A stretch of 55,632 nt of DNA, from IMG/VR virus record IMGVR_UViG_3300037510_000248, positions 1-55,632 of that record. The stretch is one strand, 5' to 3'. This document shows positions 5,065 to 40,080 of the stretch, piece after piece. The notes beneath the pieces are model-generated. The model ran no database searches, had not been told where the DNA came from, and was given only the letters and a program-made list of their open reading frames with translations. The stretch is from a virus. Its lineage: Duplodnaviria; Caudoviricetes. The translations under genes were made by a program, and so were the position numbers. Numbering within the stretch: the first letter of the stretch is position 1; each line of letters starts with the position of its first letter.

Positions 5065-5093
5065 TTGACAGGCGAGTCGGGCGGGTGTAGAAT
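5065..5093 (+). promoter_or_regulatory. Sigma70-type promoter of the membrane-protein operon
   Basis: TTGACA-17 bp-TAGAAT; TGTCA/TGACA/TGCCA repeats downstream could be operators. Confidence 0.8.
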
Positions 5094-5130
5094 GTCGGTG
5101 TCACAACGGTTATGCCAGAAAGGAGGACAT

Positions 5131-5328
5131 ATGACAGACACGCCCGCCGATCCTGAGGAGTGGATCGATATTGATGAGGCGGTGCGGCGCACGGGGCTTT
5201 CGAAGCGCACGCTGAACCGGCACAAGGCCGCGAAATCGGTTGAGACGCAGGTTATCGAAGCAGAGTTTCGCCAGCGCCAGCGCCGCACGCTGTTTAAGGT
5301 ATCGACCCTTCCATTGGCGAAATCGTAA
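5131..5328 (+). CDS. Small HTH DNA-binding protein, probable operon autoregulator
   Basis: AAGGAGG RBS; WIDIDEAVRRTGLSKRTLNR HTH. Confidence 0.8.
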   Translation: MTDTPADPEEWIDIDEAVRRTGLSKRTLNRHKAAKSVETQVIEAEFRQRQRRTLFKVSTLPLAKS

Positions 5329-5409
5329 TGGCCCGAGCGCGTTGCAACCGCGCCCGAGCCGGGTGATCTTCGAACCGTGTAGCAGTTATCAGATCGGAGA
5401 AAGTATACT

Positions 5410-5958
5410 ATGAAACGCAACCTCCCACACGACCGCTATTATCATGTCTACCGCTCAAGCGACGAGCCACGCCGGGGCAACCTCCTGAGCACGCTGCTGG
5501 TCCTCATCCTGATCGTGGTCGCGGTCTTCCTGGGCATCGGCGCGCTGCCCTACGCCCAGAAGGCGCTGAGCAGCTATGCGCCCGCGCCAACCACCGTCAT
5601 CATTGCCACGCAACGCCCAATCACAACCGGCGGCGGGCGCACCACCACCAACCCCGCGCCAGCCGCCGCGCCGATCAGCAACCCGAACGTGGCCAATAGT
5701 GACGCCGAGGCCGATGCGCTGTACGCGACGGCGGTTGCCGCCCAGAGCGCGCCCGCGCCCGACCCAAACGCGTACAACCCCGACAAGCCCGCGCTGCCGG
5801 CCGCGATTGTTCTTCCGACGATCAGCGCGGCACAGGCCGAGAGCTACGCCAATCGCGGATCGGGCGGCTGTGCCGAGGGGCAGGTGTTCGTGCCCCGCGT
5901 CGGATGTCACACGCCGGGCAGCGGTGGTGCGATGCCGGGATCAGTGGGTGCGCCATGA
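5410..5958 (+). CDS. Single-pass membrane protein with Pro/Ala/Thr-rich extracellular region
   Basis: Hydrophobic run LLSTLLVLILIVVAVFLGIGAL; C-terminal C..GQVFVPRVGC. Confidence 0.8.
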   Translation: MKRNLPHDRYYHVYRSSDEPRRGNLLSTLLVLILIVVAVFLGIGALPYAQKALSSYAPAPTTVIIATQRPITTGGGRTTTNPAPAAAPISNPNVANSDAEADALYATAVAAQSAPAPDPNAYNPDKPALPAAIVLPTISAAQAESYANRGSGGCAEGQVFVPRVGCHTPGSGGAMPGSVGAP

Positions 5959-6143
5959 CCATCACGCACTGCCATTTTTGTGGAAACAACCACAGCGACT
6001 GGGATGAGGGTGTCGAAAAATGGCAGTGCCGTATGTGTTCCTTTCGCATCCCTGTCGCGCATCTGTGGCAGTGGTGCTGGGTGAAAGATCGACCGAATCC
6101 GCCAAAGCCGATTGTACAGTTGACTATGTGGGAGGGGCTATGA
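5955..6143 (+). CDS. Small Zn-ribbon protein
   Basis: CHFC...CRMC; ATGA coupling. Confidence 0.6.
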   Translation: MTITHCHFCGNNHSDWDEGVEKWQCRMCSFRIPVAHLWQWCWVKDRPNPPKPIVQLTMWEGL

Positions 6144-6595
6144 ATACGTTGTATATCCTTGGAGGCATCGTGGTGGTGCTGGTGCTCTTCGCACTCGGTC
6201 GTCGGCAGTCTGATGAGACACTAACCGAGTATACGGGATGGGACGATAGCGGCTATGAGCCGCCTGCACACACAGACTGGTCACTTTCGCATCCAAGTAG
6301 CCCTGCGCCGCGTTTTGAGGCTGGGCAAGCTTATATCTGGGAGCAGATTGAAGATCTATTGTGGGCCTATGGCTATACTCGCGATGAGATCAAGAAGCAG
6401 TGGAACCATAACTATATCGAGATTTGGCGCGACGGGCTGCATGCGGAGTTCGATGGATCGATGGGGCAGTGTCGGGACGATGGCGAACTGCTGTATGTCT
6501 GCTACGATTTCGACCCAAACGCCGATACCAGCAAGTCAGACCGCTGGCGGCGCGCGCCAAATGAAGATGAGCGGCGCAATGCGGTGTGGCGATGA
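6140..6595 (+). CDS. N-terminally anchored membrane protein
   Basis: GGAGG RBS; N-terminal TM helix. Confidence 0.75.
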   Translation: MNTLYILGGIVVVLVLFALGRRQSDETLTEYTGWDDSGYEPPAHTDWSLSHPSSPAPRFEAGQAYIWEQIEDLLWAYGYTRDEIKKQWNHNYIEIWRDGLHAEFDGSMGQCRDDGELLYVCYDFDPNADTSKSDRWRRAPNEDERRNAVWR

Positions 6596-7632
6596 CCCGC
6601 TCGCTGCATTTCATCGCGATCGTGGTGCTCGCTGGCGGCTTTGCGGCGCTACGCCTCCTAGCCGCGCAGCCCGAGCCAGCAAGTGCCACGACACAGGCCG
6701 TTGCCGATGTCGCCCCAATCGGCGTGCTCCAGAGCGTGCCCAGCTTGAGCGCAGCGCAGATCGACACCATCCTAGCAGGCTACGACTCACCAGCAACTGG
6801 CAGCGGGCGCGATTTCTACGACCTTGGCGTGCAGTATGGTATCGACCCGGCCTACGCGCTCGCGTTCTTTGTACATGAGAGCACGGCAGGAACCAACCTA
6901 AACTGGGATGGGATGAAGCCCGATGGCTCGACCACGCACGATATTGGGAATATCAGCTGTGCGGGCTATCCGACCTGCTACGGGCGCTGGCGCGACTATG
7001 CCGATTGGAAGACCGGGATTGACGATTGGTACCGCCTGATCAACGATGAATACATCGGCGGGCGCGGTTTCTCCACGGTCGATCAGGTCATTCCTGTCTA
7101 CGCGCCGTCGATCGAGAATGATGTGGACGGCTACACGAATGCAGTGTCCGCGCTGGTGGGGCAGTGGCGAGCTGAGTATGGGCAGCAGCCTGCACACGCA
7201 GACATCGCCAGCAACCCGATCGCAATCGGCGGCGATGACTGCGGCACCAACGTGCAGGTGGCACTAGAGGCCAGCGGCGGCGCACTCCAGGACGTACAGA
7301 TCCGGCCAGGTGAGACCTTCAGCTTTAACGCGACAATGGGCGATCCTGGACGTATCCCCTATCGGACGTGCGCGGGCGTGCCAGGGGGCAATTGGTGCAA
7401 CTTGGCAGCCCGCTACGCGCAGGTGAGCCGCGCGCTCGGGCTGATGCCGCAGTTCCAAGATCACGGCGTCGGGGATTTGGGCGGTGGACCTGAGAACTCC
7501 GTTGCTATCTGGAATGAGGGCGGGCGCGCTGGCGGGCAGGACTTGCAGATTACGAACACGCTGACGCGTCCGGTGCGTTTTCAGGCAATCATAGAGGGCG
7601 GCAGCGTGATGATTATGGGAGGTGTGGAATGA
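6592..7632 (+). CDS. Exported peptidoglycan hydrolase: glucosaminidase/lysozyme-like domain + VanW-like domain
   Basis: Signal/TM; YGIDPAYALAFFVHESTAG, Y.DW..GI.DW, VYAP; C-terminal PGETFSFN..G...GG.WC.LA...DLQITN. Confidence 0.75.
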   Translation: MTRSLHFIAIVVLAGGFAALRLLAAQPEPASATTQAVADVAPIGVLQSVPSLSAAQIDTILAGYDSPATGSGRDFYDLGVQYGIDPAYALAFFVHESTAGTNLNWDGMKPDGSTTHDIGNISCAGYPTCYGRWRDYADWKTGIDDWYRLINDEYIGGRGFSTVDQVIPVYAPSIENDVDGYTNAVSALVGQWRAEYGQQPAHADIASNPIAIGGDDCGTNVQVALEASGGALQDVQIRPGETFSFNATMGDPGRIPYRTCAGVPGGNWCNLAARYAQVSRALGLMPQFQDHGVGDLGGGPENSVAIWNEGGRAGGQDLQITNTLTRPVRFQAIIEGGSVMIMGGVE

Positions 7633-8273
7633 CCGATAAGATGAGCAAGCTCGAAAAACTCGCGCTGTCGTCGGCGGTGAGCGGCGCGGTGTTTAATGTC
7701 TTTCTGTACGGTATTGGCGCGACGCTCGCTAGTGCTGGACAGGGCACGCCGCTATTTGCGGTGCGTGTTGGCGCGGCTATCCTTCAGGCGGCTGCGTTCG
7801 ATCTGGTGGCAATTGCGACTGTGATGGGCATGCGCCATGGTCGGCGCGGGCGCTGGAGCATGATCACCGCCTTCGCGTCGGCACTCGTGTCGGCGGCGAT
7901 CGCGCTGGACGTGGCGGGGGTGCTGGCGATGCCCTGGTTGCACGCGGCCAATGCCCTGATCGTACTGGCATTCACGTTGCATCTGTTGACGCCGCCGAAG
8001 GAGCGCCGTGCGCCACAACTGCGCCGGCTCGTGCGCCGCCTGTGCGCCACGGTGCGCCATGAGCGCGCCACAGCGGACCAGTTAGCGGCTCAGTTGCGCC
8101 ACACACACGAGCAGGTGCGCCAGCTTGAGGCCCGCCCGCGCCAGAGTGGCCCAACCGAAGTGATCGTGATTGGTGAGAAGCAATACAGTGTGCGCCAGAT
8201 TGCGCGCATCACCAGCACCGCGCCAACGACCTTGCGCCGCCAGTTGGCACTACTTGAAACAGTGGAGGACTAG
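7629..8273 (+). CDS. Multi-TM protein with coiled coil and C-terminal HTH (SpdB/DUF2637-like architecture)
   Basis: About 4 TM segments; C-terminal YSVRQIARITSTAPTTLRRQL. Confidence 0.75.
   Translation: MTDKMSKLEKLALSSAVSGAVFNVFLYGIGATLASAGQGTPLFAVRVGAAILQAAAFDLVAIATVMGMRHGRRGRWSMITAFASALVSAAIALDVAGVLAMPWLHAANALIVLAFTLHLLTPPKERRAPQLRRLVRRLCATVRHERATADQLAAQLRHTHEQVRQLEARPRQSGPTEVIVIGEKQYSVRQIARITSTAPTTLRRQLALLETVED
8009..8239 (+). repeat. Intragenic YGCGCCR heptamer array (12 copies, 6 exact TGCGCCA)
   Basis: Copies at 8009, 8020, 8032, 8043, 8053, 8064, 8095, 8116, 8137, 8191, 8219, 8233; they fall in all three codon phases. Confidence 0.75.
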
Positions 8274-8276
8274 CAT

Positions 8277-8632
8277 ATGTGGACTGTTGTTGCCATGCTC
8301 TTATGGATGTCCGTGATCGGTTTGTTTTTGTCGTTTCTGTGTCATTGGCGGTTTCAACGAATGATGGAGCCGCCAATACCCAGGCATACTGCACCACGGA
8401 AAGAAACGCGATACGATAGGATGCGGCGTAATGGCGGCTCACATACCCAAGAAGAATGGATCAGCCTTTGCATTCCGTACAAGGGCCAGTGTCCGTGCTG
8501 TAGACGTAAGCGGGCGTTAACGAAAGACCACATTATCCCTGTTGCGTGGGCGGCGCGGATTCTATAGATAACATCCAGCCGTTATGCAGATCCTGCAACT
8601 CGAAAAAGGGGACAAAAACAATTGTGTACTGA
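8277..8632 (+). pseudogene. TM-anchored HNH endonuclease with 1-nt frameshift
   Basis: [15 protein letters not shown], then [20 protein letters not shown] in another frame; one extra G at TGGG (8547-8550) restores the frame. Confidence 0.85.
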
Positions 8633-8753
8633 TCAGCAGAGCGATGCGCAGAAACGCGCCGGCCAATGCCCGCATTGTTTCAAGCCCGTCACGCCAAACA
8701 ATCGCGCGCGCCATATTCAGACGTGCCCAGCACGCCTAGGAGGGAGTTAAATC

Positions 8754-9296
8754 ATGGCACTACGACATCGCGCCGGCCATGCGCCGGTTCGCAGTGAACC
8801 GCTAGAGAATGGGCAGCCGCGTGAGGAGCGCCGCCCACAGACGAAGCCGCAGGGCAGCCTTTATGCGCTCAGTCTGGTTTTGCTGGCGTTCGGTATCCTT
8901 GGATGGCTGGCCGGCGGCAAGTATACGGTTGAGGGCTGGGTGGTTGCGCTGAACATGTTCGCACGATGGATCGGCGTGGAGCAACAGCTGATTGTGCCGC
9001 GCGGTTGGTGGTTGGTCGGAGCGGTGGCGGCGTCGGGACTAATCTACTCGCGCGTCGAGATGCTGGCGTTGCGCAACACTGTCCAGCGGATGCCCGCGTT
9101 CTGGATCGGCTGGCTACTGATTGTTGCGACCGATGTGGGGTCAACGCTGATCGGCGTGCTCAACCCGCCCGCCGACGCCGCACCCGTCCTCCTGCAGCTC
9201 GCAAAGCTGATCCCAATGGCGATCGTATGGGCGCTGCTCTTGACCTTCGTTCCTGAATGGCTTATCCTATCGGCAACACGTATCTTCAGGAGGTAA
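8754..9296 (+). CDS. Multi-pass membrane protein
   Basis: GGAGGGAG RBS; about 4 hydrophobic helices. Confidence 0.8.
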   Translation: MALRHRAGHAPVRSEPLENGQPREERRPQTKPQGSLYALSLVLLAFGILGWLAGGKYTVEGWVVALNMFARWIGVEQQLIVPRGWWLVGAVAASGLIYSRVEMLALRNTVQRMPAFWIGWLLIVATDVGSTLIGVLNPPADAAPVLLQLAKLIPMAIVWALLLTFVPEWLILSATRIFRR

Positions 9297-9299
9297 GTC

Positions 9300-9851
9300 A
9301 TGGTCGATCTCGCGCTGATAGCTTATAGTCTGATTGCTGCGATTGGCATGGGAGTTGCGATCGTTCTCGTGACCAATCGCGCCACATGGCTGCCGATGAT
9401 CGGCAGCGCAGTGTCAAGGGTTTCCGATGTGTGGGCGGATACCTTGGAGCGTGGGCGGCGACAAAAAGCACAGCGTGAGCGACTGTATGGCTATGATGCT
9501 ATGTCAAGTTCAGAACTGGTTCGCGACGCCGGTCGAACCAGTTCGGCGGGCGGGTCTACTGGTTCGCGGAATCTGGTTCCTGGGCAGCAGAACCAGCTCG
9601 AACCAGCAGAACCAGAGGATCGCGAACCAGACCGCGAATCGTTCGCGCGGCAGCTCGCAAAAGAGGAATTAATCATCCTCCTTGCGGTGCAACGGAACGA
9701 GGATGGCGGGTATCTCTACTCAGCGAATCAGATTACAAGTTTTGTTGGCGGCGCGGCCCAACCGATCAAGGCCACGATCGCAAACGTGCGTGGCAAGAAG
9801 GAAACACCCCCGCCCGCCAAAGCGCTGCATCGCCCGCTCAACGGCTGGTAG
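9300..9851 (+). CDS. N-terminal TM protein with C-terminal HTH-like domain
   Basis: AGGAGG RBS; TM helix; YSANQITSFVGG. Confidence 0.75.
   Translation: MVDLALIAYSLIAAIGMGVAIVLVTNRATWLPMIGSAVSRVSDVWADTLERGRRQKAQRERLYGYDAMSSSELVRDAGRTSSAGGSTGSRNLVPGQQNQLEPAEPEDREPDRESFARQLAKEELIILLAVQRNEDGGYLYSANQITSFVGGAAQPIKATIANVRGKKETPPPAKALHRPLNGW
9513..9644. repeat. Intragenic GAACCAG/CTGGTTC heptamer array (8 copies, both orientations)
   Basis: CTGGTTC at 9516, 9559, 9573; GAACCAG at 9535, 9590, 9600, 9609, 9624. Confidence 0.85.
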
Positions 9852-9861
9852 TCCCACCGCC

Positions 9862-9890
9862 CGCCCCGGCCCTCCACGGTCGGGGCGTTC
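9862..9890 (+). terminator. Probable terminator of the membrane operon
   Basis: CGCCCCGGCC-ctccac-GGTCGGGGCG hairpin, weak U tail. Confidence 0.5.
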
Positions 9891-9993: not shown

Positions 9994-10035
9994 CTTGACT
10001 TCTATTTGAATTATGATATAATCAAATTAGTCAAG
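9994..10035 (+). promoter_or_regulatory. Promoter with overlapping inverted-repeat operator (moron)
   Basis: TTGACT-16 bp-TATAAT with extended TG; CTTGACT..TTTGA / TCAAA..AGTCAAG dyad. Confidence 0.75.
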
Positions 10036-10394: not shown

Positions 10395-10633
10395 TGGCAG
10401 GAGTAAAGGGGAAAAGCGGCGGCTCGCGTAGTGAGGCGGGCCGCCCACCGACATCCATTACGTTCCGCCTCGGTGATGCCATCGCCATGCGCTACGGCCA
10501 CAATACGCCGCTGGAGGTCGGAGAGGTTGTCGAGATGCATCGCGGCATCCCCCGCACGGTCGTTATTCAGATGCGTAATGGCGAGAAGGTTTGGATTTTA
10601 ATCGAGACGCCTGCAAGCCCTGATCAATCGTGA
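10394..10633 (+). CDS. Small DNA-binding protein with GGxRxxAGRP motif (moron gene 2)
   Basis: MAGVKGKSGGSRSEAGRPP; TAATG coupling. Confidence 0.7.
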   Translation: MAGVKGKSGGSRSEAGRPPTSITFRLGDAIAMRYGHNTPLEVGEVVEMHRGIPRTVVIQMRNGEKVWILIETPASPDQS

Positions 10634-11005
10634 TCAGGGCTTGCGTATCAGTGGTAGATAGATACCCTCATGGCGAATTGCCGCCGGTGCCCGCTCGCCC
10701 GGCCCCCTGACCCACGCCCGCGCCGTGAGCGCGCCTGACTGTACGATGACCGTTGCGAGTCCCGGCGCCGCGCCTTCTGCGCGCAGCTGCGCCTCGCGCG
10801 CGTCCGTGCCCACCACGGTGTATTGAAACGCCGCGCCCCAGCCCGCAGGCGGGAACACGTGGACCACGCGCGGGGCGTCGGTGACGACGGTGATGGTCAG
10901 CAGCGCCGTGCTCGCGCCGTCTGCCTGACGGGTGAAGGCGGAGAGGCGCGGAGGCTCGGCTGGGGGCATGAAGAGCGCTAGCACAATAATGATGAGCAGG
11001 TTCAT
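10634..11005 (-). CDS. Exported protein with C-terminal IYLPLI motif
   Basis: Hydrophobic N-terminus MNLLIIIVLALF; ends GIYLPLIRKP. Confidence 0.7.
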   Translation of the reverse strand: MNLLIIIVLALFMPPAEPPRLSAFTRQADGASTALLTITVVTDAPRVVHVFPPAGWGAAFQYTVVGTDAREAQLRAEGAAPGLATVIVQSGALTARAWVRGPGERAPAAIRHEGIYLPLIRKP

Positions 11006-11526
11006 CGCGCCCCCTGCACAAACGCTACCGCAATCTGGGCATGGCCAGCGTCGTTCGGATGCACCTGGTCGGCAATCGTGTTGAGCGGATCGAACGCCGC
11101 TGACGCCGCCACATGGCGCACGCCGGTCATCGCATGGATGACCGCGTTGATCGCCACCACCGCCGCATCCGACCCGCGATCGAACGGCGGATACAGGGCA
11201 TAGGCAGCGGGCCGCATGCGCAGGCAATCCCCGAGCAACACAGTCGCGCCATACTGCCCCATTACGGCAATCGCGTGCGTGAGCGTGGTGCGATAGGTCA
11301 CGAGATTGACGCCGTAGCGCATATCGTTGAAGCCCGTGAGCAGTAGCGCGACATCCCCCTTTTTGACCGGCACAATCGGCTGCTGTGCCAGGCGTGTACC
11401 GCCGATGGCGCGGTTGTCGAGGGTGAGCCCCAGCGCGCGGGCGACAATGGCGGCGTAGCTCGTGCTGGGCACGCTGGCCCCCGCCCCGCGTGTGATGCTG
11501 TCGCCGAAACAGATCAATTTAGGCAA
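11002..11526 (-). CDS. SGNH/GDSL hydrolase (esterase)
   Basis: FGDSIT, G.ND, DQVHPN..GH catalytic blocks. Confidence 0.9.
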   Translation of the reverse strand: MPKLICFGDSITRGAGASVPSTSYAAIVARALGLTLDNRAIGGTRLAQQPIVPVKKGDVALLLTGFNDMRYGVNLVTYRTTLTHAIAVMGQYGATVLLGDCLRMRPAAYALYPPFDRGSDAAVVAINAVIHAMTGVRHVAASAAFDPLNTIADQVHPNDAGHAQIAVAFVQGAR

Positions 11527-12007: not shown

Positions 12008-12570
12008 GATGAGATCCTTGGCAAAAATATGCGCTTACAGGGGTGCCCAATGTACTCCAATGTGCGACAGCCCACAAACCCCCTCTGCCACGCGGCATTA
12101 TGCCAACACATAATATCGGGGTGGCCGCACGCGCCCGGCGTGTCGTACCAGTCCGGCAGATGGAAAAGTTCGTGCCCCAGTTCGTGCGCGATCACCGCGT
12201 CCAGGTTGTCGCCCTGGAACGTCACCCAGATCGCGTGATTGTACTCCTGCGACCGTCCGACATCACCCTTCGGGAGCCGCGCATCGCTCACGGTGTTGTC
12301 CATCACAAAAATCGTGATCGGTCCCTCGGGGCTCATCAGCGACAGCGCCCACGACAGATCGGTGTAGGCGTCGCCGGTCGGTGTGTAGATCGTTGTAGAG
12401 ACGATCGCGAGGTCAGCATACGCCTGCCAGAAGTCCGCTGCTGCGGTGATCGCCGCCTGTGCCTGTGCCGCACGCACGCCGCTGTACGCCTCGCCTAGTG
12501 GCTCCACGAATACCACATGGACCGGGCGCGGCGGCGTGAGCAGGGAGAGGATGAAAATGAATGCTGTCAT
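12004..12570 (-). CDS. Exported metzincin-like metallopeptidase with C-terminal IFLP motif
   Basis: AHELGHELFHLPD plus DIM Met-turn; N-terminal hydrophobic segment; ends RIFLPRISS. Confidence 0.75.
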   Translation of the reverse strand: MTAFIFILSLLTPPRPVHVVFVEPLGEAYSGVRAAQAQAAITAAADFWQAYADLAIVSTTIYTPTGDAYTDLSWALSLMSPEGPITIFVMDNTVSDARLPKGDVGRSQEYNHAIWVTFQGDNLDAVIAHELGHELFHLPDWYDTPGACGHPDIMCWHNAAWQRGFVGCRTLEYIGHPCKRIFLPRISS

Positions 12571-13400
12571 GTTGGTTCCTGAATAAATCCCGTCCACCCC
12601 TTGTGTTGTTTATGCTCACCCTTAAGCACTCGCCAGACGGCAGATATAGTTAAATTATATTGTCGTGCAAAACGCCCTGGATAAATAACGTTTGCATAGA
12701 TTTCCCCAGTTGGCGAGATAAAGGTGTATTTCGGTATGGATGGTGGTGTTTGGGGTTCCGATCCATTAACCCACCCTGTCCACCCCTCAGTATGATCGCG
12801 CTCACCGCGTAATACCATGCGCAAAAGATTCTCATGAAGATTGTGATCGCGCGCAAAAGCACTCATATTGATGATGTTTGGGTAACGCGTCATGTCGGGG
12901 GCGATGATGGTATATACTTTCCCACCTGATTGTGCTAACGCGTTTTGTTCTATCTGCACAGGTGTAAGCTTTCTTCCTTTGAGCGCTATGCTTATTTTAG
13001 TGCGGTGCTCAGCGGGCATTGGCCCAAGACGGATTCCCTTACGGATTTCCGATGCATGTTGCTTCGTTTCTTCGCTATGCCTAAAACCGAAACTACTCCC
13101 CGCTGTGCGAAGATTATTATATATAGCAGTTATTGGGCGATTGGCAAACATTTCATCTAACCATTTTTGCTCTGATACAAGTAGGTTTTCCGGAATTGCG
13201 ATCTCTTCTAAAACCTCAAAGGCGAATGCGTTTTCACCATATTTGTTCCATGCGCGTTGGAAATGCGGAGAATGGTGCTCTCCTCTTCGGAGGTCGTATC
13301 GATGACATCTCCATCGCTGTTGAATGCTTACGGCGCTACCAATGTAAATGCAACCTCGTGGTCCGTGAATAGCGTAGATTCCCATTTGTGGTATACTCAT
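12567..13400 (-). CDS. GIY-YIG homing endonuclease with NUMOD3-type repeats
   Basis: GIYAI...IYIGS...R; HSEETK, EHRTKISIALKG; lower GC than flanks. Confidence 0.9.
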   Translation of the reverse strand: MSIPQMGIYAIHGPRGCIYIGSAVSIQQRWRCHRYDLRRGEHHSPHFQRAWNKYGENAFAFEVLEEIAIPENLLVSEQKWLDEMFANRPITAIYNNLRTAGSSFGFRHSEETKQHASEIRKGIRLGPMPAEHRTKISIALKGRKLTPVQIEQNALAQSGGKVYTIIAPDMTRYPNIINMSAFARDHNLHENLLRMVLRGERDHTEGWTGWVNGSEPQTPPSIPKYTFISPTGEIYANVIYPGRFARQYNLTISAVWRVLKGEHKQHKGWTGFIQEPT

Positions 13401-13426
13401 GATCGTCGCTCCTATACAGCGGCTGT

Positions 13427-13480
13427 GTCGGCGTGGTGTTGATAGCACCACGCCGACTTTCCAATGCTTTAATTATACCA
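13427..13480 (-). promoter_or_regulatory. Own promoter (TGGTATAAT) and 5' hairpin of the GIY-YIG gene
   Basis: GTCGGCGTGGTG/CACCACGCCGAC 12-bp stem at 13427-13457; extended -10 at ~13472-13480. Confidence 0.6.
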
Positions 13481-22423: not shown

Positions 22424-23497
22424 CTAGTCCATAATGGTTTCGAGGATATACTTCGCCCGCAGCCCCCAGTGATGTGGCTGTACGGCCTCGTGTTGCGCCT
22501 GCTGCGCTCGCTCACGTGCGTCGTCGTGCGTCAGCCAGTAGCGCAGCTCACGCCGTAAGCTCGCGCTGTCCCACGCGCGGAAGGTGGCCGCGCTGTCGCC
22601 GTAGACATCACGCACCTCGGGCCGCTCATCATCGATCAGCATGAAGCCGCCGACCGCCGGGATCTCATACGCACGCGGGCCGAGGCTTTCCGATCCGGCG
22701 CTCACGACCTCGCCGCCCTCGATCGTGCCCATCTGCCGGTGCAAATTAAGTGCAACCTTGGCCGAGCGATGCCAGGCGCTAGTGTGGTCGTTTGGAATGG
22801 CTCCCTCCGTCCAGCGGTCGCCGCGCGCGAAGTCGGATGCGCCGTGCTCGGCATCCAAGTCCAGCCCCCAGAGCGTGCCGTGAATGGTGTGGTTGATGCC
22901 CGTCCAATCCACGCCCGCAAGCAGTCGCTTGCGCTCGGGGAAGCCACCGCCGACGAAGGTCACATCACATGCCTTATCAGGATCGGTGGCGCACAGTTGG
23001 TGCGTCACAGGGTTCCATGCGTGCGGCAGATAGAACGCGCGGGTGAGATCGGCGAAGCGCGCCACACTGGTGCGCTCATTGGTGAACCAATGACTATAGG
23101 CAGGCGCGATGGCGCGCTCGTGTGTGTCAAAGTAGGGCGACTCGGTACCGAAGCACACAACCGGGATGTTCAGCTTACGCAGCACCTCGACGCGGCTGGG
23201 TGGGAACATGAGGCCGTTCACCACAATGACCGCATCCACGGCGTTGTCGAGCGCGACCGTGACGGCATCCGCGCTGGCGACGAACATGCAGAACTCGTGC
23301 ATGCGCTGCGCCTCGGCGTCGGTGAATGTTTCGTGCTTAATGGCCGCGTTTGCCATCGCCGTGAAGGGCCGCAGCATCTCGCCCCACGCGAACGGCACGA
23401 CCTCCACGCCCGCCCACGTGAGGCCGGCGCACATGCCGTCGAACACGTCGGAGGTGCTGTGATTTTGTCCTGGGTGGATGACCATTACCTTTGTCAC
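22424..23497 (-). CDS. GT-B glycosyltransferase (CgeB/Glyco_trans_1_2-like)
   Basis: TESPY, FTNE, YLPHA, DVTFVG..FPER, K.ALNLHR, PRAYEIPA.GGF. Confidence 0.88.
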   Translation of the reverse strand: MTKVMVIHPGQNHSTSDVFDGMCAGLTWAGVEVVPFAWGEMLRPFTAMANAAIKHETFTDAEAQRMHEFCMFVASADAVTVALDNAVDAVIVVNGLMFPPSRVEVLRKLNIPVVCFGTESPYFDTHERAIAPAYSHWFTNERTSVARFADLTRAFYLPHAWNPVTHQLCATDPDKACDVTFVGGGFPERKRLLAGVDWTGINHTIHGTLWGLDLDAEHGASDFARGDRWTEGAIPNDHTSAWHRSAKVALNLHRQMGTIEGGEVVSAGSESLGPRAYEIPAVGGFMLIDDERPEVRDVYGDSAATFRAWDSASLRRELRYWLTHDDARERAQQAQHEAVQPHHWGLRAKYILETIMD

Positions 23498-34499: not shown

Positions 34500-35546
34500 G
34501 TCAGATCTATACTCACTTGCGATGTCTCGTCATCCGGCCAAGGCACTATCGGAGGCTGTCCGCGCTTTGCTCTCTCACAGTTGCGAATATGCAACATATC
34601 TTTTCGATGCCAGAAGCACCCCACGATTATGCCGCACACGCCGCACTCAATCGGACTGTTGGTGTCGCGCCCGTGAACCTCCATGCAGGTCGCGCAGATC
34701 GGCTGTTCAGTCATCGGTACCGCCTCCAAAGCTCAATCCCGACCGCCAGCCACCACGCGCCAGCCCACAGCGCCGACCACGCCAGCAGTGCGAGCCAGCG
34801 CCAGCCGCCGCGTCTCATTGGGCAAACACCGACACACCAGGGTCGTTGTAAAGCGTGTAGGTCTCTCCCTTGGGGGATGTTGTACTCGTGCAGGTCACGA
34901 TGATCGGACCCCACATCGGTGGGGCGATCGGTACCCATCGTGTGGGATACACCCAATATGGCGGCTCACCCGTAGGCGGATACAGCGGCTCGCACGGCAC
35001 AGCGGCGGGGCTGCACTGCACGCATTTCTGCACAGTCGGTGCCCATACCGTGCTGCACACTGGGCACTGCCATCCTAGGTTCGGTGTTTTTGCATTCATT
35101 GAATCCCCACCATCACAACACCACGTTCGGCCACTGCGTCCCGTGGATCGCGCGGGCCTCGGTCAGCGTGCCAGCCATCAAACGCTCGACAAAATCCTGC
35201 GCGTCGGACAGGGCGCGGAAGTCAGGCCAGCAGTGCAGCCCCACCCCTTCACGTTCGAAGGAGATAAACACGCCATAGTGCCCGGTTCCATCCGCGTTCC
35301 AGGATACCGTTCCCTCGCGGGTGACAATATCCTCATTGGTCACACGACTCACGCCATCACACATGCGGATCTGCATCCACCACCACACATCCACGCGGCG
35401 GGGCTGGGTCCATCTCAGGGTGGCGCTTTTCTCAATGCGCGGCGTCTCACTCACGGCATTGCTCCATAGATCAGTTTCGCCAGCGCGAACACGACCACGA
35501 ACAGCAGCGCCAGCAGTGCGATCGTGGAGAGGCGCGGGCGGGTCAT
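34496..35546 (-). other. Cluster of small coupled ORFs (Zn-finger and TM peptides; possible holin among them)
   Basis: e.g. 34815-35099 (WQCPVC), 34496-34714 (CxxC pairs), short hydrophobic peptides starting at 34818 and 35546. Confidence 0.5.
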
Positions 35547-36148
35547 GAGAACCACCACACATATACCACACGCGCCGCCACTAACAGGACCGCCACGAAG
35601 ATAAGGATTAAAAGCCAGCGTATCCCGCCAAAGCTCCGTGCGACCTGTTCATTCGTTGCTTCAAGTGCGGTATCGAAGCCGGTCATCCGCTCGTCGTGCT
35701 CTTCCTGGCGCTCTTTTCGGACGGTCAGTTCTTGTGTGTGCCGTTCCTCTGCGGTCGCCTCAATTCGCACCACCTGCTCAGCGATAGAATCGATTTTCTC
35801 TGTCGTTTGTGTCCGCCACTCAAGGGCTACCGCTTGCGACTGTTTCACTGCTGTCACTTCGTCGCGCATCATCGCGACATCTTGCAGGGCATTGAGCGTC
35901 GTCTGAAAGAGAAAGTAATCATCTTCGGCACGACGTTTAATCAATCCGGATATTTCGTCAGGAAGCTCCGGTTCAAGCACGAGCTTGAGCGCGCGAATCT
36001 TCTTCCGGATTGTCTCCGCGTCCAACACGACATAGGGCGGCGTGTCGTCCCCTTGCCGCTCAATCTGCAACTCACGAATACGGAGGGTTTGCTCATTGAT
36101 CGCAAGGAGGTTATGTGCATGCGCGATCTCCTCGTCACTGAGCGCCAT
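35543..36148 (-). CDS. Coiled-coil protein with C-terminal TM (lysis region)
   Basis: GGAG RBS; C-terminal hydrophobic helix. Confidence 0.7.
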   Translation of the reverse strand: MALSDEEIAHAHNLLAINEQTLRIRELQIERQGDDTPPYVVLDAETIRKKIRALKLVLEPELPDEISGLIKRRAEDDYFLFQTTLNALQDVAMMRDEVTAVKQSQAVALEWRTQTTEKIDSIAEQVVRIEATAEERHTQELTVRKERQEEHDERMTGFDTALEATNEQVARSFGGIRWLLILIFVAVLLVAARVVYVWWFS

Positions 36149-36449
36149 CGCCCGTTTCTCCGACCGACCGCGCCTGCAACGTCTCGACATCGGCGCGGAG
36201 CACTGTCACGGCATCCCAGATCTGGCGCTCCTGAGCTTCGCGTTGCCCCTGGTCCTGCGCCATGTCGTAGCGAATCGCGTCGATCGCCTCATTAAATTGC
36301 ACCTGCATCTGCCCGAATGTGATGCCCCAGTTGTTATTCTGCTGGTTCAACTGGGTCTCAAACTGACTCGCCAGCAGTTCCAGCTGGGTGCGCAGCTCGG
36401 GGTCGCTCACCTGCGCCGCGATAGTTCGGATCGTCGTTGAAGGGTTCAC
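36135..36449 (-). CDS. Coiled-coil hypothetical protein
   Basis: GAGG RBS; GTG start. Confidence 0.6.
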   Translation of the reverse strand: MNPSTTIRTIAAQVSDPELRTQLELLASQFETQLNQQNNNWGITFGQMQVQFNEAIDAIRYDMAQDQGQREAQERQIWDAVTVLRADVETLQARSVGETGDGAQ

Positions 36450-36648
36450 AATGCCTCATAAGGTGCTCGTGGAACGAACGGGTACGATTACAAGAGCGGC
36501 GGTCGATCGCGCCAGGTCTCCGGCTTCGGCGGCGGTGCGGGTGGCTGCTGCGCCGGCTGTGTCAGCACATCACACAGCGCCTTCGTCATCCCCACGCCGC
36601 CCGGTGTCGCGGCCACGCGAGCCATGTAGGCGATGTATTCTTCGGTGG

Positions 36649-36885
36649 TCATAGCGTTCCCTTTGTGCGCACATACACGGCGTTGTAGGACACGCCGAGC
36701 TGCTCAACAATCTGCGTCCGCGCCATGTCTCCGCTTGCCCACAGCGCGCGGATCTGCGTGTCGAGCTTGGGGCTGATGCGGCGGCGGGCGATGAACGGCA
36801 CCTGCACAACGGGCGCAGGCGCGCCGGTCTCAAGTCGCAGGCAGCGCTCGACCATGGCGATGTAGGCGGCACGGCTGATCGTCAT
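36649..36885 (-). CDS. Small HTH protein
   Basis: MARTQIVEQLGVSYNAVY. Confidence 0.65.
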   Translation of the reverse strand: MTISRAAYIAMVERCLRLETGAPAPVVQVPFIARRRISPKLDTQIRALWASGDMARTQIVEQLGVSYNAVYVRTKGTL

Positions 36886-37589
36886 GTCGTCAGCCCCTTC
36901 ATATCGACAAAGCCCAATCCACTCGCAAGATGCCCCGCGCCGTCGGCGTAGAGCGCGTCAACGGCAACGGCGTCGCCGGTCGCGAGGTAGCCCGCCGTGG
37001 GGCCGGTCAAGCTCTGGGCCTGATAGACCGGCAGGCCGCGTACCGTGTAGTGCTGCACCACAGGCAACGGGGGCGGTGGACTGACCAGGGCATCGCGCCA
37101 GTCGATAAAAGCAACATGGCTCCAGTCAGTCGGATCGATTTTGCGCTTGTAGGGACCCGGAAGCGCGATCTGCCCGTGCGTATCGATCGCGGCGGGCGCG
37201 ATGCCGTACATATCAGTCAGCCACAGGAGCAGCCAGCCGAGCGCGTTCTGTTGCACCGCCGGCCACGTCTCGCCTTTGGCGTGCAAGCACTCAATACCGA
37301 TCGAGTGCTGATTGTCGTACGCAACTCTCGCGTTGCCTGCGTGCCACGCCGCGAACGCACGCGGATCAAGAAACTGGATAATCTCGCCGCCGCGCCCGAT
37401 CAAGAAGTGGGCCGATACCTTCGGCGTCGTGTAGAGATACAGCGCCGCGTTGTTGAGCGACTGCCCGATCGTGCCCTCGGTCGAATGGACGACGATCGCG
37501 GTCGGGGGCGCGGTGCGGCGTTCGTAGCCATGATTGACTGGATACGCGGCAGTCTTGTTGTAGCTCGTGACATCGATCGAGAACGTCAT
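36882..37589 (-). CDS. Endolysin, N-acetylmuramoyl-L-alanine amidase (Amidase_2) with SH3-like C-terminus
   Basis: IVVHST, SAHFLI, AWHAG, SIGIE, H...K.DP. Confidence 0.92.
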   Translation of the reverse strand: MTFSIDVTSYNKTAAYPVNHGYERRTAPPTAIVVHSTEGTIGQSLNNAALYLYTTPKVSAHFLIGRGGEIIQFLDPRAFAAWHAGNARVAYDNQHSIGIECLHAKGETWPAVQQNALGWLLLWLTDMYGIAPAAIDTHGQIALPGPYKRKIDPTDWSHVAFIDWRDALVSPPPPLPVVQHYTVRGLPVYQAQSLTGPTAGYLATGDAVAVDALYADGAGHLASGLGFVDMKGLTT

Positions 37590-37843
37590 CCCCACACCGC
37601 CTCTCCCGCGCACGCGCAGCCCGGCGCGGCAAAGCGCGGCCACACGCCGTGCTTCAGGTAGTACTCAGTCGCACGCACGCCGTAAAGCGTTCGTATGAGC
37701 GCGAGGTCAGAGACATCCGGGGCGGGCAGAGGGTCAAAGCGATGCGGGGAGAAGGGGAGAAGCGCGGGGGCAACGTCAAGAGGCCGGCTCAGATCGAGTC
37801 GGGCGGATCGGCGGCTGCGGTTGTCGGATGGTGCCATGCTCAT
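37586..37843 (-). CDS. Hypothetical protein, first gene of late operon
   Basis: ORF between late promoter and endolysin. Confidence 0.5.
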   Translation of the reverse strand: MSMAPSDNRSRRSARLDLSRPLDVAPALLPFSPHRFDPLPAPDVSDLALIRTLYGVRATEYYLKHGVWPRFAAPGCACAGEAVWG

Positions 37844-38939: not shown

Positions 38940-39620
38940 TCAATCTCGTAAGCCCCTCCCTTCTGCCGCGCGCCCTGGTTCAGCGTGATCAGGGCGTTGC
39001 TGTGTCGAGCGGGGCTTATGCCACGGCTTGAAAGCGCGCAGGGCGTCAATCGCAGGCCATTCACCAGTAAACGTGATCGCGCGATCGTCAATCGTAAGAA
39101 ACGCGGGCGGCTTCTCCGTCGGCCAGTGCAAATTGAGGAGCAATGCTGTTTTCGGAAGGGGCAATCCCATTCCTGCTTGGAGTTCGCGCCATGCGTTCTC
39201 GTGTACATGTATCCACTCCTGCATGGCATCGATCCCGCCTTCCTGGTGCGAACGTGACGAGTAAATATGCACGTCAAACGCAAAGATCGCCTCATACAGA
39301 AACGCAATTGCACCAGGTACGGGCGGGTCGGGAATGACGGTCGCGCCTTTCCATCCTGATGAATAAGAATGCAGTACACCGTCGAAGTCCACACAAAGAA
39401 TAGGCTTACTGACTGCATTAGTCATAGGAATCTCCTCTATCGTTAATTGACAACCATAAACACGCAGAAGTTTTTCGAGCGACTCCAACGACGGCGACGC
39501 CACCCCGCGCTCGATTTCTGAGATAAACGAAACCGATAGCCCCGACCATTTTGCGACATCCGCAAGCCGTAGCTTGCGTCCTTTGCGTGCCAACCGCAAC
39601 AACGGTGCTAGCTCGCTCAT
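38940..39620 (-). CDS. XRE HTH fused in frame to a HAD-family phosphatase (PNK/phosphatase-like)
   Basis: LADVAKWSGLSVSFISEIERG; CVDFDGVLH, SSR, EKP, IDDRA; internal GAGGAG RBS + ATG at 39425. Confidence 0.8.
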   Translation of the reverse strand: MSELAPLLRLARKGRKLRLADVAKWSGLSVSFISEIERGVASPSLESLEKLLRVYGCQLTIEEIPMTNAVSKPILCVDFDGVLHSYSSGWKGATVIPDPPVPGAIAFLYEAIFAFDVHIYSSRSHQEGGIDAMQEWIHVHENAWRELQAGMGLPLPKTALLLNLHWPTEKPPAFLTIDDRAITFTGEWPAIDALRAFKPWHKPRSTQQRPDHAEPGRAAEGRGLRD

Positions 39621-40080
39621 CGCTCTCCTCGCTTCCCTCGTAATCGCCGCCCGGCCATCGCGCCCGGCGTGCTGACGAACGTCGGCAGCAGCTCGACCGC
39701 GCCGCCCGCTTTCCACACAACGGTAAAATAGCCGCCGCAATAACGGCAAAGCACCGTATCGCCGGTCACGCGGCTGGCGAGGTCGCGCGGGGCCTGGCAG
39801 TGCGGGCAGGGGTGGGTGGTGGTGGGGTTGGTCATAACGGCAGCACCTCCTGCTGTGCGACTGGCGGCGCGCACACCGCACAATCCGATCGCCAATTATC
39901 GCGCACATACTGACATGTCACTCGGTCAACCGTGTAGCCCTGCCCAATGGCCCATGCCGCCTCTTTCGCGTTGTCGGCGCGGTGGTATGGCTCGTCTACG
40001 GCTGCCCACACAAAACAGCCGCACGCCTTACGGGCGATGTATGCCATCGGCTCAACCTCGGTGGTGGTATGCTCGCTCAT
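39617..40080 (-). other. Two small Cys-rich ORFs (39617-39835, 39832-40080)
   Basis: CxxC pairs; ATGA coupling. Confidence 0.55.

What the first reader, a model, noticed from the sequence alone, without database searches (positions are those of the whole stretch)
5065..9890. Self-contained membrane/cell-wall/DNA-binding operon resembling a plasmid 'spread' module inside a tailed phage
Seen: consensus promoter, HTH autoregulator, mostly TM-containing ORFs, an exported glucosaminidase-VanW hydrolase, a TM-HNH, two TM+HTH proteins and a closing hairpin, all separate from the lysis cassette at 36-37 kb. Known: Streptomyces conjugative plasmids use operons of membrane Spd proteins for intramycelial spreading. 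Inference: a module that tethers phage DNA to the membrane or septum and moves or partitions it between cells of a filamentous Chloroflexota host. No TraB/FtsK or VirB4 ATPase is visible in the window, so it would be ATPase-less or borrow a host translocase. Best candidate for an undescribed system.
Basis: partly seen in the sequence, partly recalled or inferred. Interest (0 to 1): 0.82.

Follow-up and report, generated by a model that had tools for sequence, protein, structure and literature searches.

The report
Membrane-anchored DNA-binding gene cluster in phage
An uncultured temperate phage, probably of Chloroflexia bacteria, carries a tightly packed run of membrane, cell-wall and DNA-binding genes, of which three with no known relatives are conserved in related phages and probably hold DNA at the cell membrane.

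Summary
The gene run is real. A TTGACA-N17-TAGAAT promoter at 5065-5093 precedes ten close-packed + strand ORFs. Seven of the ten carry predicted membrane helices, against 8 of 76 ORFs elsewhere in the window. They include an exported glucosaminidase/VanW-like hydrolase (E), a 4TM-coiled-coil-HTH protein (F), a polytopic protein (H) and a TM-plus-HTH-like protein (I).

Only part of the run is a conserved system. In 20 related loci, tblastn finds F in 16, H in 9 and I in 3. It finds the other seven ORFs, hydrolase included, in none. All 10 F loci with enough downstream DNA show F, then a polytopic protein, then a TM-HTH protein.

The HNH gene is a frameshifted remnant of an F-like 4TM-HNH-HTH paralogue.

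No Spd/DUF2637, FtsK or VirB4 homology was found, and F, H and I have no match in 72,556 plasmids. No Pfam family, defence model or solved fold matches F, H or I.

Best reading (about 0.3): a docking platform that holds phage DNA at the membrane, as phi29 p16.7 does. One relative has a ParM-like gene inside the cluster. Rivals: SNIPE-like exclusion of incoming DNA (0.22), an unrelated mosaic of genes (0.2), cell-to-cell spread (0.08). The function is unproven.

The parts
5065..5093 (+). Sigma-70-type promoter-like site, TTGACA-17 nt-TAGAAT.
   Evidence: 11 of 12 consensus matches. An AGGAGG-type ribosome site follows before the ATG at 5131.
5131..5328 (+). A: 65-aa putative HTH protein, excisionase/regulator-like.
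   Evidence: phrog_66 excisionase and transcriptional regulator, E = 0.0054. No Pfam or meaningful NCBIfam hit. 0 of 20 related loci.
5410..5958 (+). B: bitopic membrane protein. One TM helix at residues 25-43, then a Pro/Ala-rich tail ending with two Cys.
   Evidence: No family hit. Proteins of the same build, without detectable sequence similarity, lie in the cluster in L012, L013, L016, L017, L020 and L021.
5955..6143 (+). C: 62-aa CxxC...CxxC zinc-ribbon-like protein.
   Evidence: Weak hits only: zf-Sec23_Sec24 at 0.0018 and a Lar-like PHROG at 0.069. ATGA overlaps with B and D. L013 has a true Lar_restr_allev protein upstream of its F (8e-10).
6140..6595 (+). D: 151-aa protein with an N-terminal TM helix and a domain with no known relatives.
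   Evidence: No family hit. 0 of 20 loci.
6592..7632 (+). E: exported or membrane-anchored two-domain peptidoglycan hydrolase. N-terminal glucosaminidase-type domain and C-terminal VanW-like domain.
   Evidence: The Glu in the conserved HES motif is invariant in 18 aligned sequences. Relatives carry M23, NlpC/P60 or VanW at the C-terminus instead. A 51-kb contig of another run matches 5477-7107 at about 91% and then diverges.
7629..8273 (+). F: core gene. Four TM helices, a coiled-coil helix and a C-terminal HTH.
   Evidence: 89 homologues, none with a Pfam domain. 177 cluster representatives at E <= 1e-3. Alignment A1 gives invariant Asp58, His105, His118 and Arg203-Arg204. Model pLDDT 71.9. 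No solved fold matched.
8277..8632 (+). G: frameshifted remnant of an F-like paralogue, consisting of one TM helix plus an HNH nuclease domain.
   Evidence: P0279 and P0382 (4TM-HNH-HTH) align to 8304/8361-8558 in frame 3 and to 8537/8549-8629 in frame 2 (E = 4e-16 and 3e-15). Pfam HNH at 0.0039 for the first half alone.
8622..8750 (+). G2: 42-aa Cys-rich ORF. It is doubtful that this is a gene.
   Evidence: ORF listing only. No family hit. 0 of 20 loci.
8754..9296 (+). H: core gene. A polytopic membrane protein with 4-5 helices.
   Evidence: 50 homologues, none with a Pfam domain. Alignment A2 gives invariant Ser14, Ser99, Glu102, Asp127 and Thr131, and a conserved N-terminal V-R-S-E-x-L motif. 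Model pLDDT 85.9. No fold match: Foldseek best E = 1.9, VIA best Z = 6.6.
9300..9851 (+). I: core gene. N-terminal TM helix, variable acidic linker and a C-terminal HTH-like domain of about 55 aa.
   Evidence: Alignment A4 of 11 positional homologues. Atlas structure rows to HTH_38, HTH_7 and Sigma70_r4 clusters, all below the tool's bar. Always lies directly after H.
9862..9887 (+). GC-rich stem-loop of 10 bp after the stop codon of I, without a U tract.
   Evidence: Centroid fold. Not called as a terminator. The z-score of the 151-nt stretch is -1.56.
9995..10022 (+). Next promoter-like site, TTGACT-16-TATAAT with TG. It marks the right boundary of the unit.
   Evidence: 11 of 12 matches.

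Best explanation
The stretch is one close-packed transcription unit at the end of the phage's early arm, on the same strand as the replication genes. Only three or four of its genes form a conserved system.

The core genes are:
- F: four membrane helices, a coiled coil and an HTH.
- H: a polytopic membrane protein with invariant Ser, Glu, Asp and Thr.
- I: one membrane helix, an acidic linker and an HTH-like domain.
- Usually a B-type bitopic protein with a Pro-rich tail.

Proposed mechanism: F and I sit in the cytoplasmic membrane with their DNA-binding domains in the cytoplasm. Basic residues follow their last helices, which supports this orientation. Together with H they form a docking platform that holds phage DNA at the membrane while it is replicated or segregated. 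The models are phi29 p16.7/p1 and the membrane-directed DNA of prophage CGP3.

The hydrolase E, the Zn-ribbon C, D and the HNH remnant G are lineage-specific additions.

Shown: gene order, membrane and HTH architecture, conservation and synteny, and the absence of known-family membership.
Inferred: topology, DNA binding, complex formation and purpose.
For: - Architecture: F is 4TM-coiled coil-HTH. Family members hit HTH_23 and Sigma70_r4_2.
- Synteny: all 10 F loci with at least 750 nt downstream have a polytopic protein followed directly by a TM + HTH-like protein on the same strand (L002, L003, L005, L007, L008, L009, L012, L013, L020, L021).
- The family diverges with the phage lineage from 93% down to about 25% identity, which is core-like behaviour.
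- Position: the cluster lies downstream of, and on the same strand as, the primase-helicase, methylase and integrase genes.
- In L013 a ParM-like gene (phrog_691 partition protein, 5e-17; ParM/StbA in the PDB at 0.046) and a 74-aa ORF lie between F and H-I.
- Precedents, from passages read: phi29 p16.7 and p1 anchor replicating DNA to the membrane (PMC4974454). CGP3 AlpAC pushes phage DNA to the membrane and is an early gene pair (PMC4446434).
Against: - DNA binding and complex formation are not shown.
- 6 of 150 F-family representatives carry a nuclease between the anchor and the HTH: 4 with T5orf172/MUG113 and 2 with HNH. Free GIY-YIG or HNH genes sit between F and H in L007 and in the window. 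A nuclease is odd for a tether of the phage's own DNA.
- In L016 and L019 the H-I pair lies next to the integrase and before the tail genes, a place typical of accessory or lysogeny genes.
- No repeat array that could act as a binding site or centromere lies near the cluster, either in the window or in L013.
- The ParM link is seen in 1 of 20 loci only.
- L016, L017 and L019 have H-I without a detectable F.
Confidence: 0.3

Rival explanations
1. Superinfection exclusion or defence at the membrane. The membrane-anchored DNA-binding proteins, and nuclease-bearing paralogues such as the ancestor of G, intercept foreign DNA as it enters. The membrane tether keeps them away from the host chromosome, as in SNIPE.
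For: - F-family variants are built as 4TM-T5orf172/MUG113(-HTH) (P0301, P0314, P0352, P0396) or as 4TM-HNH-HTH (P0279, P0382).
- Their nuclease parts hit the PADLOC models PD-Lambda-1 and PDC-S57, at 3e-6 to 4e-9 in the best case, P0301.
- P0279's anchor is 49% identical to F (1e-28).
- GIY-YIG and HNH genes occupy the F-H slot.
- H (31% identity) diverges much faster than F (70%) between the window and L002.
- The unit has its own 11/12 promoter and sits between the integrase and the tail-gene end.
- SNIPE is a TM-anchored DNA-binding GIY-YIG nuclease that cuts phage DNA during injection (PMC13190303, passages read).
Against: - The window's B, D, E, F, H and I hit no PADLOC model apart from one chance-level row.
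- 144 of 150 family representatives have no nuclease.
- The only nuclease in the window is broken.
- The cluster is present throughout a diverged lineage, unlike patchy morons.
- The nucleases in the slot could be ordinary homing endonucleases. The window has another GIY-YIG/NUMOD gene at 12567-13451.
- That the PD-Lambda-1 model stands for SNIPE is my recollection, not a tool result.
Confidence: 0.22
2. No single system. This is an ordinary mosaic of early-arm genes that happen to encode membrane proteins. F and I would be membrane-tethered transcription regulators or have unrelated roles, and H-I would be an independent pair.
For: - 7 of the 10 ORFs (A, B, C, D, E, G, G2) have no detectable counterpart in 20 related loci.
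- The content between F and H varies: nothing, HNH, GIY-YIG, DUF5662, or ParM plus three ORFs.
- Close packing and overlapping stops are usual in phage operons.
- H-I occurs without F in 3 loci.
Against: - The order F, then polytopic protein, then TM-HTH recurs in 10 of 10 informative F loci.
- Membrane proteins are strongly enriched in the region.
- B-type proteins recur in the cluster in 6 loci.
Confidence: 0.2
3. One reading: the module moves phage DNA between cells of a filament, as Streptomyces Spd proteins do. E opens septal wall, B spans it, H forms a channel, and F and I hold the DNA.
For: - It accounts for every component class, including the exported hydrolase and the Pro-rich protein.
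- SpdB2 is a four-TM, coiled-coil, dsDNA-binding and peptidoglycan-binding pore former. It is encoded in translationally coupled operons of diverse genes. [quoted passage not shown]
- Relatives of the hydrolase, and one H locus (an Oscillochloris MAG), point to filamentous Chloroflexia as hosts.
Against: - No DUF2637 or other similarity to plasmid proteins.
- No FtsK/TraB or VirB4-type ATPase.
- The hydrolase is absent from all 20 related loci.
- The prior for this in a tailed phage is low.
Confidence: 0.08
4. A second lysis cassette. E would be a signal-anchored endolysin released from the membrane, and the small membrane proteins would be holins or pinholins.
For: - E has an Ala/Gly-rich N-terminal hydrophobic segment and a conserved catalytic Glu.
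- The amidase region has no obvious holin except a tail-anchored 215-aa protein.
Against: - The genes lie on the early arm behind a sigma-70-type promoter.
- F and I carry HTH domains.
- E is not linked to F-H-I in relatives.
- No holin family hit in PHROGs or Pfam.
Confidence: 0.04

Closest known systems
Bacillus phage phi29 p16.7 (with p1), the membrane organiser of phage DNA replication
   Same: It is an early phage protein that anchors replicating phage DNA to the membrane (PMC4974454). From my own knowledge, p16.7 is built as a TM helix, a coiled coil and a C-terminal DNA-binding domain, the same order as in F and I.
   Different: F has four TM helices and an HTH of the resolvase/sigma-r4 type. 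Two anchored proteins plus a polytopic partner are conserved here. The phage replicates with a primase-helicase, not by protein priming. tblastn of F and H against 50,697 phage records found nothing.
Streptomyces plasmid Spd spread operon (SpdB2, SpdB3, Spd79 with TraB)
   Same: Translationally coupled operon of diverse small membrane proteins. SpdB2 has four TM helices and a coiled coil, and it binds dsDNA and peptidoglycan (PMC4447253).
   Different: No sequence similarity was detected. There is no TraB/FtsK translocase and no GntR-type regulator. The cluster is found in phage contigs, not in plasmids.
SNIPE, a membrane-bound GIY-YIG nuclease that cuts phage DNA during injection
   Same: A membrane anchor, a cytoplasmic DNA-binding part and a nuclease (PMC13190303). 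Six F-family variants repeat this plan with T5orf172/MUG113 or HNH domains.
   Different: The window's F has no nuclease and no DUF4041, and it has four TM helices rather than one. The core proteins have no PADLOC hit.
Corynebacterium prophage CGP3 AlpC/AlpA
   Same: An early prophage actin-like protein and its adaptor bring phage DNA to the membrane (PMC4446434). L013 has a ParM-like gene and a small ORF inside the cluster.
   Different: The window itself has no actin-like gene. No membrane receptor is known for AlpAC. No alpS-like repeats were found.
Modular glucosaminidase autolysins of Chloroflexales (for gene E only)
   Same: The N-terminal domain of E is 60-70% identical to proteins named glucosaminidase in Chloroflexus, Roseiflexus and Chloroploca.
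   Different: The C-terminal domain is exchanged among relatives: M23, NlpC/P60 or VanW. Here the gene is phage-borne and on the early arm.

Membership tests
Streptomyces Spd / SpdB2-type spread proteins | Sequence membership.
   No DUF2637 match in the six-frame window at E <= 1. 0 of 19 and 0 of 44 F-family members hit it. No tblastn match of F, H or I in 72,556 plasmids. No SpdB2 sequence was compared directly.
Streptomyces Spd / SpdB2-type spread proteins | Partnership with a TraB (FtsK-like) DNA translocase. | tested here: not met
   No PF01580 or PF12846 match in the 55.6-kb record. CheckV rates the record 53% complete, so a gene outside it cannot be excluded.
Streptomyces Spd / SpdB2-type spread proteins | Integral membrane protein with four TM helices and a coiled coil that binds dsDNA and peptidoglycan and forms pores. 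| not testable with these tools
   F has four predicted TM helices, a coiled coil and an HTH. Binding and pore formation need biochemistry.
Streptomyces Spd / SpdB2-type spread proteins | Operon of translationally coupled small genes. | tested here: met
   ATGA overlaps at B/C, C/D, D/E and E/F, and 3-nt gaps at F/G and H/I. This is also common in phage operons.
SNIPE / PD-Lambda-1-type membrane-bound nuclease | N-terminal membrane anchor. | tested here: met
   Four hydrophobic helices in F and one in G.
SNIPE / PD-Lambda-1-type membrane-bound nuclease | DUF4041 DNA-binding domain. | tested here: not met
   No DUF4041 hit in F or in the 19 + 44 family members scanned.
SNIPE / PD-Lambda-1-type membrane-bound nuclease | Intact C-terminal GIY-YIG nuclease. 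| tested here: not met
   F has none. G is an HNH, and it is frameshifted. Only 4 of 150 family representatives carry T5orf172/MUG113. Their nuclease parts hit PD-Lambda-1 models, at 3e-6 in the best case.
phi29 p16.7-type membrane anchor of phage DNA | TM anchor, coiled coil and C-terminal DNA-binding domain, encoded among early genes. | tested here: met
   This holds for F at the level of architecture only. The feature list for p16.7 is partly recalled and partly from PMC4974454. No homology is claimed or found.
Glycoside hydrolase 73-type glucosaminidase (gene E, N-domain) | Pfam Glucosaminidase domain with a conserved catalytic Glu. | tested here: inconclusive
   The window protein scores 18.3 bits against a cut-off of 30.2. 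Many close homologues carry PF01832. The profile matches N-acetylglucosaminidase 5wqw at 2.3e-4. Glu96 is invariant in 18 sequences.
VanW domain (gene E, C-domain) | Pfam PF04294 match. | tested here: inconclusive
   21 bits against a cut-off of 27, covering 29 of 130 profile positions. Full-length homologues P0011 and P0099 carry PF04294.
HNH endonuclease (gene G) | Intact HNH motif in one reading frame. | tested here: not met
   The motif is split between frame 3 (to 8558) and frame 2 (from about 8549). The only run that spans this place may be the source of the assembly, so a sequencing error cannot be excluded.
ParMRC / AlpAC actin-type DNA positioning | Actin-like ATPase with an adaptor and centromere repeats. 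| tested here: not met
   None in the window. The relative L013 has a ParM-like gene (5e-17 to phrog_691), but no repeat array was found beside it.

The most novel reading that the evidence does not exclude
The conserved B-F-H-I proteins, joined in this phage by an exported wall hydrolase and in one relative by a ParM-like filament, form an envelope-spanning conduit. It would pass phage or prophage DNA across the septa of a filamentous Chloroflexia host without virions. This would be a phage counterpart of Streptomyces Spd-mediated spreading that works without an FtsK-type motor.
Probability: 0.08. Interest if true: 0.9.

Novelty: new variant of a known kind. Interest (0 to 1): 0.5.

Why it matters
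F, H and I are families without any annotation, Pfam domain or solved fold. F has 177 cluster representatives and H has 50 homologues. They form a syntenic membrane cluster in a lineage of uncultured temperate phages, probably of Chloroflexia.

If they dock phage DNA at the membrane, they would extend the phi29 p16.7 and CGP3 AlpAC theme to primase-dependent tailed phages, and would supply the missing membrane receptor.

If they exclude incoming DNA, the F anchor would be a new carrier for membrane-tethered nucleases of the SNIPE type.

In either case the 4TM-nuclease-HTH variants give a testable handle on how phages use the membrane to separate their own DNA from foreign DNA.

Tried and rejected
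- Single-protein and profile scans of IMG/VR with E and F found nothing. A GTDB genome scan with the F profile also found nothing.
- Pfam, PHROGs, NCBIfam and PADLOC gave no usable hit for B, D, F, H or I.
- Fold searches gave no clear match. For H, Foldseek PDB best E = 1.9 and VIA-wide best Z = 6.6, which is within noise for helical bundles. For F, Foldseek best E = 1.2.
- The ESM Atlas search for H gave only leads under 0.9, including a YWFCY cluster at 0.86 that I do not use.
- Complex prediction on H + I gave no verdict, with score 0.00 against a mark of 0.32. I count this neither for nor against binding.
- No RNA run holding the stretch is listed, so expression could not be read.
- Laying contigs of four DNA runs could not check the frameshift independently. 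Only the probable source run spans it.
- I took the 250-aa L017 protein upstream of H for ParB-like by eye. Pfam found nothing, so I dropped the claim.
- The 4TM + Zn-ribbon protein of L019 is not a demonstrable F relative (hhalign probability 27%). The 'H2' proteins of L012 and L021 are not demonstrable H relatives (probability 4.7%), although they share the N-terminal motif and the position.
- No tandem or dispersed repeat array lies near the cluster.
- Relatives cannot be drawn for a virus record.

Full report
**What the window is.** The window is a 55,632-bp IMG/VR virus record, linear, with a CheckV completeness estimate of 53%. Pfam places terminase, portal, capsid, an Amidase_2 lysin, a 1,585-aa probable tape measure, a glycosyltransferase, a GDSL esterase and a GIY-YIG/NUMOD endonuclease on the - strand between about 10.6 and 45.5 kb. 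A Prim-Pol/AAA_25 primase-helicase, a D12 methylase, a tyrosine integrase, DUF5131 and DUF3850 lie on the + strand from 46 kb through the record end to 10.6 kb. The finding therefore lies at the far end of the early arm, on the same strand as the replication genes. It sits just before the point where the two arms converge, which is marked by a perfect 14-bp inverted repeat at 10613-10644.

**The observation.** A TTGACA-17-TAGAAT site at 5065-5093 (11 of 12) precedes a ribosome site and the ATG at 5131. Ten + strand ORFs follow without gaps:

| ORF | Coordinates | Size |
|---|---|---|
| A | 5131-5328 | 65 aa |
| B | 5410-5958 | 182 aa |
| C | 5955-6143 | 62 aa |
| D | 6140-6595 | 151 aa |
| E | 6592-7632 | 346 aa |
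| F | 7629-8273 | 214 aa |
| G | 8277-8632 | broken |
| G2 | 8622-8750 | 42 aa |
| H | 8754-9296 | 180 aa |
| I | 9300-9851 | 183 aa |

Four junctions are ATGA overlaps. A second 11/12 promoter-like site at 9995-10022 starts the next unit. Hydrophobic TM-like segments occur in 7 of the 10 ORFs and in 0 of 7 flanking ORFs. In a crude ORF set for the whole window the figures are 7 of 7 inside against 8 of 76 outside (Fisher p = 1.5e-6). That set used ORFs of at least 60 aa on the strand expected from the genome map, which drops A, C and G2. The clustering of membrane proteins is therefore real. The hairpin after I (9862-9887) exists but has no U tract and is not statistically remarkable.

**Individual genes.**
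- E has only sub-threshold Pfam hits (VanW 2.4e-4, Glucosaminidase 4e-3). It belongs to a large family of 565 hits. The N-terminal domain is 60-70% identical to proteins named glucosaminidase in Chloroflexus, Roseiflexus and Chloroploca. In relatives the C-terminal half is replaced by M23, NlpC/P60 or VanW domains. A family profile matches a solved N-acetylglucosaminidase (2.3e-4), and a Glu in the HES motif is invariant.
- F has four helices, a 40-residue helix and a small C-terminal HTH. Its own HTH hits are weak (HTH_7 at 0.015), but relatives hit HTH_23 and Sigma70_r4_2 at 1e-6 to 5e-7.
- H models confidently (pLDDT 85.9) as a bundle of four to five helices. It has invariant Ser99, Glu102, Asp127 and Thr131 and a conserved N-terminal V-R-S-E-x-L motif.
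- I has an N-terminal helix, a variable acidic linker and a C-terminal domain of about 55 residues. The only evidence that this domain is an HTH is an Atlas structure lead below that tool's bar.
- A has one weak PHROG hit to excisionase/regulator (0.0054). C is a CxxC...CxxC protein with chance-level hits.

**The HNH gene is a remnant.** The HNH motif of G stops in frame 3 and continues in frame 2 from about 8549. Two F-family proteins, P0382 and P0279, are built as 4TM-HNH-HTH. P0279's membrane domain is 49% identical to F (1e-28). Its fourth helix plus HNH domain aligns to G across the two frames (4e-16); P0382 does the same (3e-15). G is therefore best read as the decayed C-terminal part of a tandem F-like paralogue, not as a free homing endonuclease. 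The only run whose contig spans this place may be the source of the assembly, so an assembly error is not excluded.

**What is conserved.** F has 89 homologues in the word-indexed search and 177 cluster representatives at E <= 1e-3 in the exhaustive profile search, all without Pfam domains. H has 50 homologues. I fetched 20 related loci: 14 metagenome loci, 5 IMG/VR loci and 1 contig from an Oscillochloris MAG. tblastn of the ten module proteins and seven flanking proteins against all 20 finds F in 16, H in 9 and I in 3. It finds everything else, hydrolase included, in 0.

Ten F loci have at least 750 nt downstream. In all ten, a polytopic membrane protein followed directly by a TM + C-terminal-helical protein lies on the same strand within about 3.2 kb (L002, L003, L005, L007, L008, L009, L012, L013, L020, L021). 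In five of them H is detectable by sequence. In the others the assignment rests on position, helices and the shared N-terminal motif.

B-type proteins, with one helix and a Pro-rich tail, recur in the cluster in L012, L013, L016, L017, L020 and L021 by architecture only. In L020 the four genes B-F-H-I are contiguous. H-I occurs without a detectable F in L016, L017 and L019.

The slot between F and H varies between loci:
- empty in L002-L005 and L008;
- the HNH remnant in the window;
- a GIY-YIG gene in L007 (Pfam 5e-6);
- DUF5662 in L009;
- in L013, a B-type protein, a ParM-like gene (phrog_691 partition protein, 5e-17) and two small ORFs.

A 51-kb contig in another run shares 5477-7107 (B, C, D and the first half of E) at about 91% and then diverges, which fits the domain swapping seen in E. 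So B-E travel together in the nearest kin, and F-H-I travel together across the wider lineage.

**Tests of the spread idea.**
- DUF2637 is absent from the window and from 0 of 19 and 0 of 44 F-family members.
- F, H and I have no tblastn match in 72,556 plasmids. F and H have none in 50,697 phage records.
- FtsK/SpoIIIE and AAA_10 are absent.
- Membership of the Spd family is therefore not supported.
- The functional analogy stands as an analogy. SpdB2 is a four-TM, coiled-coil protein that binds dsDNA and peptidoglycan, and its authors already suggested that phage-borne homologues might spread phage DNA (PMC4447253, passages read).

**Nuclease variants.** Of the 150 listed representatives, 4 carry a T5orf172/MUG113 domain and 2 carry an HNH domain between the anchor and the HTH. 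The T5orf172 parts hit the PADLOC models PD-Lambda-1 and PDC-S57. P0301's anchor is about 40% identical to HTH-only members of the L013 subfamily, so the insertion is recent. This repeats the plan of SNIPE, which has a TM anchor, a DNA-binding part and a GIY-YIG nuclease and cuts DNA as it enters (PMC13190303, passages read). It is the main argument for an exclusion role. Against it: 144 of 150 members have no nuclease, the core proteins hit no defence model, and the cluster behaves like a lineage-wide core.

**Verdict on mechanism.** I rank a membrane docking platform for phage DNA first (about 0.3). The reasons are:
- the TM-coiled coil-HTH plan of F and the TM-linker-HTH plan of I;
- their constant pairing with H;
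- their place among early genes on the replication-gene strand;
- the ParM-like insert in L013;
- the precedents of phi29 p16.7/p1 (PMC4974454) and CGP3 AlpAC, which pushes phage DNA to the membrane (PMC4446434).

Exclusion of incoming DNA comes second (0.22). An unrelated mosaic of genes is third (0.2), then cell-to-cell spread (0.08) and lysis (0.04). The remainder is unassigned. No step beyond architecture and synteny has been shown.

**Limits.**
- Most related loci are short contigs, and the long contigs that hold close homologues could not be read.
- No expression data exist.
- The complex prediction gave no verdict.
- Host assignment to Chloroflexia rests on the relatives of E and on one MAG contig. 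The runs that hold the phage are soil and rhizosphere metagenomes.
- Supplementary files of the papers were not consulted.

Noticed in passing
window 51272-51323: A perfect 18-bp unit repeated 2.9 times, near the 3' end of the primase-helicase gene (49435-51639). It may be an iteron array or replication origin.
   Followed up: no
window 10613-10644: A perfect 14-bp inverted repeat with a 4-nt loop, exactly where the + and - strand arms converge. It is a likely bidirectional terminator.
   Followed up: partly
window 5966-5979 / 6016-6029: A perfect 14-nt inverted repeat, 36 nt apart, inside the small Zn-ribbon gene C. It overlaps the two CxxC-coding stretches and could form an RNA hairpin.
   Followed up: no
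window 12567-13451 (-): A GIY-YIG plus NUMOD/I-HmuI-like homing-endonuclease-type gene among the tail-distal genes. It shows that free-standing endonucleases are active in this genome.
   Followed up: no
window 35543-37643 (-): The Amidase_2 lysin is followed by small ORFs and a 215-aa coiled-coil protein with a C-terminal TM helix. No classical holin is evident.
   Followed up: partly
window 38940-39908 (-): A 322-aa HTH_3/HTH_31 protein with a long extra C-terminal part. It is a candidate repressor and lies on the same strand as the late genes.
   Followed up: no
window 11002-11526 and 22424-23497 (-): A GDSL-type esterase near the tail-fibre end and a glycosyltransferase amid the structural genes. 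They may relate to surface polysaccharide recognition or modification.
   Followed up: no
L019 2627-3886 (-): The Oscillochloris MAG contig carries a second, divergent set: a Cro/cI-like HTH, a 154-aa polytopic protein and a 162-aa TM + helical-tail protein. It lies opposite the integrase, in addition to the H-I pair at 7790-8870.
   Followed up: partly
L013 11335-12518: A ParM-like gene (phrog_691, 5e-17) plus a 74-aa ORF lie between F and H-I in a 47-kb contig. That contig also has cI/Cro-like genes and a DnaB/AAA_25 helicase. No integrase was seen in the 20 kb held, so it may be a plasmid-prophage.
   Followed up: partly
F-family proteins P0310, P0320, P0344: The coiled coil between the anchor and the HTH varies from about 40 to about 200 residues among family members, so the HTH is held at very different distances from the membrane.
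   Followed up: no
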